From Candidatus Thorarchaeota archaeon (GTDB lineage: Archaea; Asgardarchaeota; Thorarchaeia; Thorarchaeales; Thorarchaeaceae): DNA of 23,054 nucleotides. Positions 21,063 to 23,054 of the stretch are shown here, in pieces. The stretch lies in NCBI GenBank assembly GCA_048882045.1, contig JBHLRZ010000043.1, positions 1-23,054 on the forward strand, given 5' to 3'. Position numbers and translations under genes: made by a program. A model generated the notes under the pieces. The model saw nothing but the letters and a program-made list of their open reading frames with translations, did no database searches and was not told the DNA's origin. Within the stretch, counting starts at the first letter, position 1; the number at the start of each line of letters is the position of its first letter.

Positions 21063-21134
21063 CTACATCTGTTTCTCTTGCCTGTACGGCAGAAAGTCAG
21101 GTCCGAATATCTCGCGTGCCATGACGATCTTCTG
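21063..21134 (-). repeat. Array repeat R10 (reference copy)
   Basis: 72 nt = QKIVMAREIFGPDFLPYRQEKQM*. Hairpin AAGAAAGGGAT-TCGT-ATCCCCTTCTT at 21030-21055. Confidence 0.97.
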
Positions 21135-21290
21135 TTAGTCGTTCATTGTGAGTCTGAAATAGAAGTTCTTCAAGGATGTGAATAGGATACTTTATGAGAT
21201 AGACCCAGCAGATTACTACAATGTAGGAAGAGGCTTTAGGTTCTGAAGTTCTCGTGCATAATACAAGCATCTGAAGAGGTTGAGTATAGA

Positions 21291-22154
21291 TTGAGAAGAA
21301 CATGGATGAATCTAGAAGCGATAAGAAGCACAGACATCCGGCGACTGCTTGAAAACTTGGGTCTTTCTGGAATGATCCTATATATCGCGATCGAAGCCAG
21401 TTGGGGTGTCGATTATCCAAGTTTTGTGGAATATATGAGTTATAGCCCTAATCTCTATAGATTGACTGACCAGTTGATAATAGCTCTTAGTCCATACATT
21501 AGTATTGGCAACCTGTTCTCTCTAGTGTTTGCTGGTTGCATGTTTCTTGTGTTTCAGTTTACAAAACATCGACGCATTGAATTGATTCTCATTACAATTG
21601 CTGCAGCTTTGACTTTCAAGGTTCGAAGTGCTGCTATGTATCCATTACTGCTACTTCTGGCAGTTACTGGAAATCCTTTGGTACTCATTCCGTTAGCCCT
21701 TGTAAAAGAACATGCGGTTATAATTGGTGTCCTCTATCTTCTTGTGTTTAGACGTGAAGTTCCATTTAGAAAAGTCGTACTTGGTGGAAGCGCTGCTTTT
21801 GCACTTTGGTCTTGTGTTGTTCTATTGATGGGCTGGACATCCGTACCCGGCCTTCCAACTGGTCTTGGCATAACGTCATGGTTGTTACATATACAGGAGT
21901 GGAGCCTCATGACAATAGGATTTAGAACCGTGATTCTTCTCCCATCAATCATACTTCTAATCCGGGACAAAAACAGTGGATTGTTTCTCGGACTATGTAT
22001 TATAGTTCTGATTCTTGTAGCTGATTTCTTTGAACCTCAACATTGGTTAGCACCTGCTGTTCCACTTAGTTGGGAGGCTGTATCGCGGATATCTCCGGAT
22101 GAATCAATACAATCAACCGAACCAGTATTTTCCGATAACACTGTCATGTCATAA
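21291..22154 (+). CDS. Multi-pass membrane protein, unknown function
   Basis: 287-aa hydrophobic ORF. Start uncertain (21291 or 21306). Its last codons overlap the relic at 22118. Confidence 0.7.
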   Translation: MRRTWMNLEAIRSTDIRRLLENLGLSGMILYIAIEASWGVDYPSFVEYMSYSPNLYRLTDQLIIALSPYISIGNLFSLVFAGCMFLVFQFTKHRRIELILITIAAALTFKVRSAAMYPLLLLLAVTGNPLVLIPLALVKEHAVIIGVLYLLVFRREVPFRKVVLGGSAAFALWSCVVLLMGWTSVPGLPTGLGITSWLLHIQEWSLMTIGFRTVILLPSIILLIRDKNSGLFLGLCIIVLILVADFFEPQHWLAPAVPLSWEAVSRISPDESIQSTEPVFSDNTVMS

Positions 22155-22289
22155 GAATGATCTACAAAGCTGTTACGAATAGTTTTTGTTGAAGAGGTTA
22201 TCATAGTAAAGACTTGAATGTGTGGCTGTGGTATGAGTGGAATATATTCAGAAGATATAGGATGAATTCTTGGACAAGAGCATGTTTCA
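22118..22289 (+). pseudogene. Relic of the 69-aa/502-aa gene junction (homolog of 5010-5171)
   Basis: CGAACCAGTATTTTCCGATAACACTGTCATGTC...TGGACAAGAGCATGTTTCA aligns with 5010-5171. Reads VEYIQKI*DEFLDKSMF versus VDYIQIVKDDFLDKSMF, then is truncated. Confidence 0.8.
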
Positions 22290-22374
22290 TTATACTTTGG
22301 ATCCTCGAGATATTTCCAGAATTGTTCGAAAAAAGAAGAATGGAGAGGGATGATTACCCTCTCATATAGATGAA

Positions 22375-22446
22375 TTATTCCATCTGACCCTTCTGACGAT
22401 AGGGTAGATATTCAGGTCCGAATATCTCACGAGCCATGACGATCTT
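22375..22446 (-). repeat. Array repeat R11 (divergent allele)
   Basis: Minus strand KIVMAREIFGPEYLPYRQKGQME*. Seven synonymous and two conservative codon changes versus R10 in the first 18 codons. Hairpin GAGAGGG-ATGATTA-CCCTCTC at 22343-22363. Confidence 0.93.
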
Positions 22447-22483
22447 TTCCTGTACGTTTTTGAAACTAAAATACCACTTCTGG

Positions 22484-22580
22484 TTTCTAATCTGAAGAGA
22501 ACGCAGATATAGTAGTTCAGCTTTCTTTTCCACACCAATGTATTTGAACAATATATTGGTAATAAAATCAAAGACGTGGT
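22484..22580 (+). promoter_or_regulatory. Conserved upstream region, copy C
   Basis: Ungapped similarity to 4714-4810 (TTTCTAATCTGAAGAGAACGCAGATAT...TTTGAACAATATATTGGTAATAAAATCAAAGACGTGGT). Confidence 0.55.
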
Positions 22581-22603
22581 TAAAATAGGAGTTGTTTTGG
22601 AGT

Positions 22604-23008
22604 ATGACCGAAGTAAAAATGTTAGCGAAAATAGCCTTGTTGGCTTATGGAATTGCCTGTTTTCTATTTGGTCTCATGTTAATCTTTATGACTGCAACCT
22701 TTTTAGATCCCTTAGTTCCTGGCTGGGAGGTCAATGTGTTCCATCCAAGAGTGCTAGGTGGATTCCTGGTCGTCATAGGCTTTTTCGATATTCTAATGAT
22801 TCTCAATAAGAAATGGGAATGGGATCACATCAAAGTGGCCTACATGGCTCTATTTGCCTTCATCATTCCTATGATCATTGGGCAAATACTTTCATTGGTT
22901 CTCTTATCACCGACTGCTGCCTTTGTTGGCGAGATGATGTTTGAGATTCCCCTAGAAGCTGTACTACTAATCCTTGGAATCATCGGATACCTAAAGCAGA
23001 GTGGATAG
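22604..23008 (+). CDS. 4-TM membrane protein, paralog of 6901-7302
   Basis: Starts MTEVKMLAKIALLAYG, about 84% aa identity to 6901-7302. Confidence 0.85.
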   Translation: MTEVKMLAKIALLAYGIACFLFGLMLIFMTATFLDPLVPGWEVNVFHPRVLGGFLVVIGFFDILMILNKKWEWDHIKVAYMALFAFIIPMIIGQILSLVLLSPTAAFVGEMMFEIPLEAVLLILGIIGYLKQSG

Positions 23009-23023
23009 AATTGGAATAATCTA

Positions 23024-23054
23024 TGAAGAGAGGAGGTAACGCTCCTCTTCTTCA
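23024..23054 (-). terminator. Terminator-like hairpin, predicted start of the next array unit
   Basis: TGAAGAGAGGAG-GTAACG-CTCCTCTTCTTCA, same GA/CT style as the hairpins flanking the other repeats. Confidence 0.55.

What the first reader, a model, noticed from the sequence alone, without database searches (positions are those of the whole stretch)
21063..23054. Predicted target: an acyl-CoA dehydrogenase gene on the minus strand beyond the right edge
The peptide fits the acyl-CoA dehydrogenase C-terminal pattern G(T)xxIQ(K/R)xxIARxxxG. From memory it is closest to cyclohexanecarboxyl-CoA dehydrogenase (AliB)-like ends such as IARE.IGRE.LPY; this is recalled, not searched. Repeat polarity puts the intact gene to the right. 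The window ends exactly on another terminator-type hairpin (23024-23054), so a further copy or the intact gene's stop codon should follow within about 10-25 nt. An acyl-CoA dehydrogenase as an integration hotspot would be an unusual att site.
Basis: inference. Interest (0 to 1): 0.8.

Follow-up and report, generated by a model that had tools for sequence, protein, structure and literature searches.

The report
Cast-off tails of a nuclease-targeted gene
The repeats are discarded 3' ends of an acyl-CoA dehydrogenase gene that does lie intact just past the window edge in this Thorarchaeota (Asgard archaeon) genome, and relatives carry a DNA-cutting 'homing' enzyme gene right behind it, so this looks like an archaeal counterpart of the yeast WHO elements that has left a row of accessory genes.

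Summary
The prediction holds. The window is a whole contig (C43). Its last 77 nt overlap contig C56, which carries two more repeat copies and then an intact 413-aa acyl-CoA dehydrogenase (ACAD) gene on the window's minus strand. In window-extended coordinates the gene is at 26393-27634. The next copy starts 8 nt past the window end.

With C44 joined on the left, the locus holds 15 same-strand cast-off tails over about 30 kb, and none elsewhere in the genome. The 'AliB-like' recollection is not supported; the protein is a generic ACAD.

No tyrosine or serine recombinase was found in this genome, and no tyrosine recombinase (PF00589) on any array contig of the genus. In relatives, a LAGLIDADG endonuclease gene sits convergently just behind the ACAD gene. 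In two relatives it is followed at once by a cast-off tail, which is the layout of yeast WHO homing elements.

Best reading (about 0.6): the ACAD 3' end is a homing-nuclease target whose tail has been replaced repeatedly, with accessory genes riding along. This genome has no nuclease copy, so its array is a legacy or was built in trans.

The scan had already reached the WHO-like reading on another genome (e1-5646491). I tested its central claim here and it held. I found no paper describing such elements in archaea.

The parts
21029..21058 (-). terminator-like hairpin that follows the decoy stop codon (GA-rich arm, loop, TC-rich arm)
   Evidence: MFE -15.1 kcal/mol
21063..21134 (-). cast-off ACAD tail (decoy): last 23 codons plus TAG; the best-preserved copy in the window
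   Evidence: 82.4 bits, E 3.7e-23
21291..22154 (+). cargo ORF, 287 aa, predicted membrane protein, no Pfam hit, single copy in the genome
22342..22364 (-). hairpin following the next decoy
   Evidence: MFE -12.0 kcal/mol
22375..22449 (-). cast-off ACAD tail of a divergent allele (EYLPYRQKGQME*). It differs by many synonymous changes and resembles the tails of resident genes in relatives with no or few decoys.
   Evidence: 58.1 bits
22592..23008 (+). cargo ORF, 138 aa membrane protein; paralog of 6844-7302 (84% aa identity) and of C56:12252-12650 (41%)
23023..23054 (-). hairpin belonging to the next decoy, which lies at 23062-23128 on the neighbouring contig C56
3417..20000 (-). the rest of the array inside the window. 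Decoys start at about 3417 (partial), 7360, 12134, 13458, 15008, 15791, 17527 and 19868, with cargo genes between them.

Best explanation
The 3' end of this ACAD gene is the target of a homing-endonuclease element that works like the yeast WHO elements at FBA1.

Inferred mechanism:
- A free-standing LAGLIDADG nuclease, encoded convergently just behind the gene, cuts a nuclease-free allele near codons 389-393.
- The break is repaired from DNA of a carrier.
- The left end copies the carrier's replacement tail (last ~22 codons, stop, terminator hairpin) and whatever lies behind it: the nuclease gene and/or passenger genes.
- The right end re-anneals at a tail fragment in the donor.
- The recipient's old tail is pushed outward as a dead fragment.

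Repetition builds a row of [tail fragment + hairpin + gene(s)] units, with the newest next to the gene. Direct repeats then allow units, including the nuclease unit, to be lost or shuffled.

In the window's genome 15 such tails remain and no nuclease gene does. The units hold intact, unrelated accessory genes.

Shown: the anatomy, the intact target gene, the nuclease family and its position in relatives, the decay gradient, and which halves of a repeat travel with which flank. Inferred: cleavage, the cut position, the repair route, and how passenger genes enter units.
For: (1) The intact ACAD gene sits at the right end, and 15 same-strand tails lie on C44+C43+C56 only.

(2) The only gene family that recurs behind the resident gene, in 8 related loci, is a 562-1073-aa protein on the opposite strand starting 6-101 nt after the stop.
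- Pfam LAGLIDADG_3 scores at or above its cutoff in 4 of 6 members.
- Two LAGLIDADG motifs with invariant acidic residues are present.
- The AlphaFold model has pLDDT 84.9. The listed Foldseek PDB matches are nearly all LAGLIDADG homing enzymes: PI-SceI, I-SceI, I-DmoI (TM 0.63-0.65) and PI-PfuI.

(3) In L030 and L079 the order is gene, nuclease gene, then at once a tail fragment with the usual left border. This is the WHO layout described in PMC7282813.

(4) C-terminal remnants of the nuclease gene lie behind the ACAD gene or within the array in at least 5 more loci.

(5) The match of decoys to the profile falls with distance from the gene: rho = -0.77, p = 8e-4.

(6) The first 45 nt of a decoy travel with the upstream unit (identity 0.79 against a background of 0.66). 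The last 24 nt plus the hairpin travel with the downstream unit (0.92 against 0.75). This is the chimera the WHO model predicts.

(7) Decoys are closer to a pan-species consensus than to their own gene's tail in 38 of 55 cases.

(8) Some close gene pairs have discordant tails, for example body 0.87 and tail 0.62.

(9) Alleles next to a nuclease gene carry GGGM or GAAM where the others have GGSH or GGAH, just left of the border.

(10) G000 has no PF00589, PF16795 or PF00239 hit. PF00589 never occurs on an array contig in 28 genomes of the genus.
Against: The window's own genome has no homolog of the nuclease, by tblastn at 1e-4 and by profile search. None of its 15 units shows a nuclease remnant.

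The units are compact and hold intact unrelated genes. WHO clusters hold WHO genes and pseudogenes, so passenger carriage or trans-mobilisation must be assumed.

Three relatives (L032, L042, L064) have the nuclease gene but no decoy in the sequence available downstream (only ~2 kb in L064).

Three of 12 junction pairs switch at other positions.

How Thorarchaeota bring donor and recipient DNA together is unknown. No cleavage has been tested.
Confidence: 0.6

Rival explanations
1. Integron-like cassette system. Each unit would be a small circle inserted by a site-specific recombinase acting in trans, with crossover in the last ~20-25 nt of the ORF. The enzyme would be encoded elsewhere or on an unbinned element.
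For: Units hold one or a few genes, and no unit encodes a recombinase. The junction clusters near core position 45 in most informative pairs. The repeat consensus is shared across species. One metagenome contig, L129, has a truncated tyrosine recombinase 290 nt upstream of a decoy.
Against: G000 has no tyrosine or serine recombinase. None lies on array contigs in the genus. The full-length homolog of the L129 fragment (G065:C413) has no ACAD tail nearby. The motif is absent from IMG/VR viral contigs. The hairpin is a short native terminator-like stem that is also present in array-less relatives, not an attC-type palindrome. Cargo orientation is mixed. Junction positions are not strictly fixed.
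Confidence: 0.12
2. Recombinase-free and nuclease-free exchange. The ~66-nt shared tail would serve only as portable homology for ordinary homologous recombination: loop-out of units as circles, then Campbell-type re-insertion after DNA transfer between relatives.
For: Direct repeats of 66-115 nt flank every unit. Units are shuffled and duplicated within the locus. Junctions vary in position. No recombinase was found.
Against: This does not explain the sharp common left border. It does not explain why a LAGLIDADG gene occupies the first position in 7 loci, or the gene-nuclease-tail layout. Short, diverged homology is a poor substrate without a break. This process probably does operate as the deletion and shuffling step of the main model.
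Confidence: 0.15
3. Decayed remains of ordinary integrase-bearing integrative elements that inserted serially into the 3' end of the gene. This is known for thaumarchaeal iMGEs (integrated mobile genetic elements) and for tycheposon islands.
For: Archaeal iMGEs do target the 3'-distal parts of protein-coding genes and form tandem arrays (PMC6563490). Tycheposon islands hold partial tRNAs and mostly integrase-free material.
Against: About 250 tail units were collected from about 110 related and metagenome loci (215 distinct). PF00589 was never on an array contig in the 28 genomes of the genus. A phmmer/tblastn screen of all array loci with the genus's own integrases found only one truncated integrase fragment. 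Units are 0.7-2.5 kb with little non-coding DNA.
Confidence: 0.08

Closest known systems
WHO homing elements at FBA1 in Torulaspora and Lachancea yeasts (Coughlan et al. 2020, PMC7282813)
   Same: The nuclease gene lies directly downstream of a conserved metabolic gene. Each event replaces the gene's 3' end. Old 3' ends pile up as same-strand fragments with a common left border. The newest units are nearest the gene and older ones decay. The fragment behind the element serves as the homology arm.
   Different: This system is archaeal, not yeast. The nuclease is a free-standing double-motif LAGLIDADG protein with HTH-like (helix-turn-helix) repeats; no Hint (intein splicing) domain or zinc finger was detected. 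The replaced tail is only ~22 codons, against ~140 in FBA1. The units here carry unrelated intact accessory genes rather than nuclease genes or pseudogenes. This genome has no nuclease copy at all.
Integrons and CALINs (clusters of attC sites lacking an integrase), including those reported in Archaea (Ghaly et al. 2022, PMC9668308)
   Same: An array of small units, often one gene each, bounded by a repeated ~70-115-nt site, with diverse accessory cargo and no mobility gene inside the units.
   Different: There is no IntI and no attC palindrome. The repeat is a gene tail. Cargo orientation is mixed and cargo genes have their own promoters. The two Thorarchaeia genomes in the part of that paper's genome table read here have only 2 attC sites each.
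Serial site-specific integration at gene 3' ends or tRNAs (thaumarchaeal iMGEs, PMC6563490; tycheposons, bioRxiv 10.1101/2020.12.28.424599)
   Same: The target's 3' end is restored by the incoming DNA. Displaced partial copies mark older events. Incoming units push older ones outward.
   Different: Those elements carry tyrosine or serine integrases or casposases. None is found here.

Membership tests
Acyl-CoA dehydrogenase (the target gene) | Pfam Acyl-CoA_dh_N, Acyl-CoA_dh_M and Acyl-CoA_dh_1 domains in order | tested here: met
   Scores are 104.7, 47.8 and 107 bits, all above their cutoffs. The protein aligns end to end with 5lnx_A and 40 other solved ACADs.
Acyl-CoA dehydrogenase (the target gene) | catalytic Glu in the C-terminal (Y)EG(T) motif | tested here: met
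   GAEGGSHVQK aligns with IYEGTNEIQR of 5lnx_A. The decoy border lies about 7 codons after it.
Cyclohexanecarboxyl-CoA dehydrogenase (AliB, TIGR03207) | score above the equivalog cutoff | tested here: not met
   The score is 194.7 bits against a cutoff of 575.35. AcrC (236 bits) and glutaryl-CoA dehydrogenase (227 bits) score higher but are also below their cutoffs.
WHO-like homing element (mode of action) | endonuclease gene immediately downstream of the full-length target | tested here: not met
   This is not met in this genome, which has no homolog. It is met in relatives L030, L032, L042, L064, L079/L092 and L115.
WHO-like homing element (mode of action) | tandem same-strand 3' fragments of the target with a common left border | tested here: met
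   There are 15 fragments here. 177 distinct decoys from related and metagenome loci (own genome included) share the border at ATCGTCATGG.
WHO-like homing element (mode of action) | newest units nearest the gene, older ones decayed | tested here: met
   Spearman rho is -0.77, p = 8e-4.
WHO-like homing element (mode of action) | the 3' end of the target evolves discordantly from the 5' part | tested here: inconclusive
   Some close pairs are discordant (body 0.87-0.90, tail 0.62-0.76), but the tail is only 66 nt. Overall rho is 0.43.
WHO-like homing element (mode of action) | allele-specific cleavage of the target by the nuclease | not testable with these tools
   This needs a biochemical or genetic assay.
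WHO/HO/VDE protein family | intein-derived Hint domain fused to LAGLIDADG and a zinc finger | tested here: not met
   Pfam finds only LAGLIDADG_3. The fold matches cover 200-240 columns, the nuclease core only. The rest of the model is helical, HTH-like.
LAGLIDADG homing endonuclease (protein behind the gene in relatives) | two LAGLIDADG helices with acidic residues, and the alpha-beta-beta-alpha-beta-beta-alpha fold | tested here: met
   D352 and D474/D476 are invariant. Foldseek probability is 1.00 to PI-SceI, I-SceI and I-DmoI.
Integron | IntI tyrosine recombinase next to the array | tested here: not met
   G000 has no PF00589 hit, and none lies on array contigs.
Integron | attC imperfect palindrome with R/L boxes | tested here: inconclusive
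   I checked by eye only: an 8-10-bp stem and no GTTRRRY core. No attC model was available.
Integrase-borne integrative elements in tandem | an integrase or casposase gene in or beside the units | tested here: not met
   There is one truncated fragment, in L129 only.

The most novel reading that the evidence does not exclude
The ACAD tail array is a nuclease-driven gene-capture platform of Asgard archaea. Units without any nuclease would be copied in trans into any cut ACAD allele through the shared tail homology. A selfish homing element would then have become, in effect, an integron-like collector and exchanger of accessory genes across Thorarchaeota species. It may be one of several such loci, given up to 9 copies of the nuclease family per genome.
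Probability: 0.35. Interest if true: 0.85.

Novelty: new variant of a known kind. Interest (0 to 1): 0.74.

Why it matters
WHO-type 'tail-replacing' homing was described only in a few yeast genera, where it explains the origin of the HO mating-type switching nuclease.

An independent archaeal version would show that this strategy is general. It uses a different nuclease architecture. The ACAD tail arrays occur in at least three genera of the Thorarchaeaceae, and the nuclease family in 42 of 86 genomes of the family.

It would also explain how genomes without detectable integrases build hypervariable islands of accessory genes. It would explain why MAG assemblies of this group break at this locus. 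It would give a concrete, testable route of gene flow in the archaeal lineage closest to eukaryotes. The nuclease is also a candidate new long-site meganuclease.

Tried and rejected
Recombinases:
- Tyrosine recombinases (PF00589, PF16795) and serine recombinases (PF00239) gave no hit in G000. PF00589 was never on an array contig in the genus.
- The tyrosine recombinases (PF00589 hits) of the genus have no ACAD tail beside them.
- The L129 truncated integrase has a full-length relative, P0001 in G065:C413, that lies by a Hef helicase with no tail nearby.

Mobile carriers and known RNAs:
- Two scans of IMG/VR viral contigs for the tail motif found nothing.
- No tRNA and no Rfam family lies in the window, and no tRNA on C56.

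Neighbouring genes:
- The divergent upstream neighbours p550 and p533 are polytopic membrane proteins, not an IntI-like gene.

Literature leads:
- Aloposons are tRNA-targeting elements with giant genes and are unrelated.
- Archaeal integrons: the Thorarchaeia entries seen in the genome table have only 2 attC sites.

Other:
- Synteny of the distal flank between genera is not conserved.
- Caveat: the Pfam scan of 93 cargo ORFs from relatives shows only the top 25 families, so single weak hits could not be seen there.

Full report
**Observation**

The two repeat copies in 21063-23054 are real. Each is the reverse complement of the last 23-24 codons and stop of an ORF, followed in gene sense by a 12-18-nt spacer and a GA-rich/TC-rich hairpin. 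A core search finds 12 copies, all on contigs C43 and C56. A profile search finds 16 places including the resident gene end. All are on C44, C43 and C56, on one strand, and nothing below E = 0.3 lies elsewhere in 3.6 Mb.

**The gene beyond the edge**

- The window is the whole of contig C43. Its last 77 nt equal the reverse complement of the end of C56, and C56 is the only partner.
- An independent metagenome contig, L129, crosses the same junction at 93% identity.
- On C56 lie a decoy at window-extended 23062-23128, another at 25390-25457, and a 413-aa ORF at 26393-27634 on the minus strand. The ORF ends in ...GGSHVQKIVMAREIFGPDFLPYRQEKQM*.
- The ORF has all three Pfam ACAD domains. It aligns over its full length with solved short- and medium-chain ACADs, with the catalytic Glu motif about 7 codons before the decoy border.
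- No NCBIfam equivalog cutoff is reached. The remembered AliB family is only third best, at 195 bits against a cutoff of 575.
- It is one of six ACAD paralogs in the genome. The others are at most 31% identical and carry no decoys.

**Extent of the array**

The end of C44 overlaps the start of the window by 13 nt. The join turns the truncated ArsR-like ORF at the window's left edge into a 250-aa protein that matches its ortholog in another genus over the full length at 89%. C44 adds two to three degraded decoys. The array is therefore about 29.9 kb with 15 cast-off tails, spaced 0.7-4.8 kb.

Cargo is unrelated and mostly intact:
- S41 peptidase
- BBE-type (berberine bridge enzyme-like) FAD oxidase
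- esterase
- LVIVD-repeat protein
- a third glutamine synthetase copy
- rhodanese
- TPR (tetratricopeptide repeat) protein
- NosD-like beta-helix protein
- LRR (leucine-rich repeat) protein
- several membrane proteins

**Relatives**

The organism is a Thorarchaeota MAG, judged from the record titles of relatives. ACAD orthologs of 80-96% identity are followed by same-strand tail arrays in many Thorarchaeaceae genomes and in sediment metagenome contigs, with up to 9-13 tails. Other genomes have none within 10 kb. Those show what look like native tails (...LPYRQKGQFD*) and the same kind of hairpin, so the hairpin is a native feature of the gene.

Decoys from different species share a nucleotide consensus. 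They are closer to it than to their own gene's tail in 38 of 55 cases. Third codon positions are more conserved among decoys than among resident genes. The tails therefore circulate with the units.

**First hypothesis: a recombinase**

I looked first for a recombinase.
- The genome has no tyrosine or serine recombinase. In 28 genomes of the genus, PF00589 occurs in 9 and never on an array contig.
- Cargo ORFs of relatives showed no recurrent mobility gene.
- Viral contigs lack the motif.
- One metagenome contig has a truncated integrase near a decoy, but its full-length relative has no tail beside it.

**The turn to a homing nuclease**

I tested this.
- Clustering the ORFs right behind resident genes gives one recurrent family, found in 8 loci. 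It is always on the opposite strand and starts 6-101 nt after the stop.
- It hits Pfam LAGLIDADG_3. It has two LAGLIDADG motifs with invariant Asp residues. It folds with pLDDT 84.9 into a structure whose listed PDB matches are nearly all LAGLIDADG homing enzymes.
- In L030 and L079 the order is gene, nuclease gene, then immediately a tail fragment with the usual border. This is the arrangement Coughlan et al. describe for WHO elements at FBA1.
- Nuclease remnants lie behind the ACAD gene or within the array in at least five more loci.
- The family occurs in 42 of 86 genomes of the family, with up to 9 copies, some broken.

**Further agreement with the WHO model**

- Decoy quality falls with distance from the gene: rho = -0.77.
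- In pairs of units that share only one flank, the first 45 nt of the decoy go with the upstream unit. The last 24 nt, spacer and hairpin go with the downstream unit. This is expected if the donor's fragment and the recipient's old tail recombine.
- Some closely related genes have discordant tails.
- Alleles beside a nuclease gene have GGGM or GAAM instead of GGSH just left of the border. These may be resistance changes.

**What does not fit**

- The window's genome has no nuclease homolog and no remnants.
- Its units carry ordinary genes. Passenger carriage, trans-mobilisation and later loss of the nuclease unit by repeat recombination must be assumed.
- Three relatives have the nuclease but no visible decoy.
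- The origin of new units is unexplained.
- The nuclease is not a member of the intein-derived WHO/HO family. The resemblance is in mode of action only.

**Literature**

Integration into the 3' ends of archaeal protein genes and tandem reuse of a site are known for integrase- and casposase-borne elements. Tail arrays without mobility genes recall tycheposon islands and CALINs. I found no paper linking LAGLIDADG genes, Asgard archaea and tail replacement.

**Verdict**

The target is a generic ACAD. The most likely mechanism is WHO-like homing (0.6). The rivals are a trans-acting recombinase, plain homologous recombination, and decayed integrase-bearing elements.

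Noticed in passing
window 1-410 with the end of contig C44: C44 joins the window's left end by a 13-nt overlap. The truncated ArsR-type HTH ORF becomes a full 250-aa protein. The array continues into C44, with decoys at about C44:20304, 21608 and a partial one at 19029.
   Followed up: yes
window 1-3309; L020:6109-9430: A four-gene block (ArsR-like, FMN reductase, SCP2 protein, flavodoxin/4Fe-4S protein) is shared at 71-91% aa identity with another genus. There it also lies between ACAD tail fragments, so it is a multi-gene unit.
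   Followed up: partly
window 13564-14886: The glutamine synthetase in the array is a third copy, only 39% and 36% identical to the two others in the genome.
   Followed up: partly
window 17734-19791: This 685-aa NosD/right-handed beta-helix protein is built of 22-aa (66-nt) repeats. The same family is the commonest cargo in arrays of relatives (7 of 109 ORFs).
   Followed up: partly
window 4676-7405 versus 22118-23054 plus C56:12250-14460: The same modules occur twice in a different order, with and without tails between them: a ~100-nt upstream element, a 138/152-aa membrane protein and a 502/519-aa protein. This points to unit shuffling.
   Followed up: partly
L129:847-1236 (metagenome contig Ga0224507_10021243): A truncated tyrosine recombinase (N-terminal 129 aa) lies 290 nt upstream of an ACAD tail and next to a Hef-like helicase. 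Its 94%-identical full-length relative is P0001 (270 aa).
   Followed up: partly
whole genome G000: No PF00589, PF16795 or PF00239 hit was found in a 93%-complete genome. Not even a XerA-type recombinase was detected.
   Followed up: no
Thorarchaeaceae genomes: The LAGLIDADG family is multi-copy (up to 9 hits per genome, some with in-frame stops) at many loci other than the ACAD gene. It may target other genes in the same way.
   Followed up: no
window 15888-17408; C48 and C42: The TPR cargo protein belongs to a family with at least 7 further paralogs clustered on C48 and C42.
   Followed up: no
L079, L092, L115, L033 resident ACAD genes: Alleles beside a nuclease gene or its remnant read GGGM, GAAM or GGAM where all 24 alleles without a nuclease gene or remnant read GGSH, GGAH or GGSL, just left of the decoy border.
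   Followed up: partly
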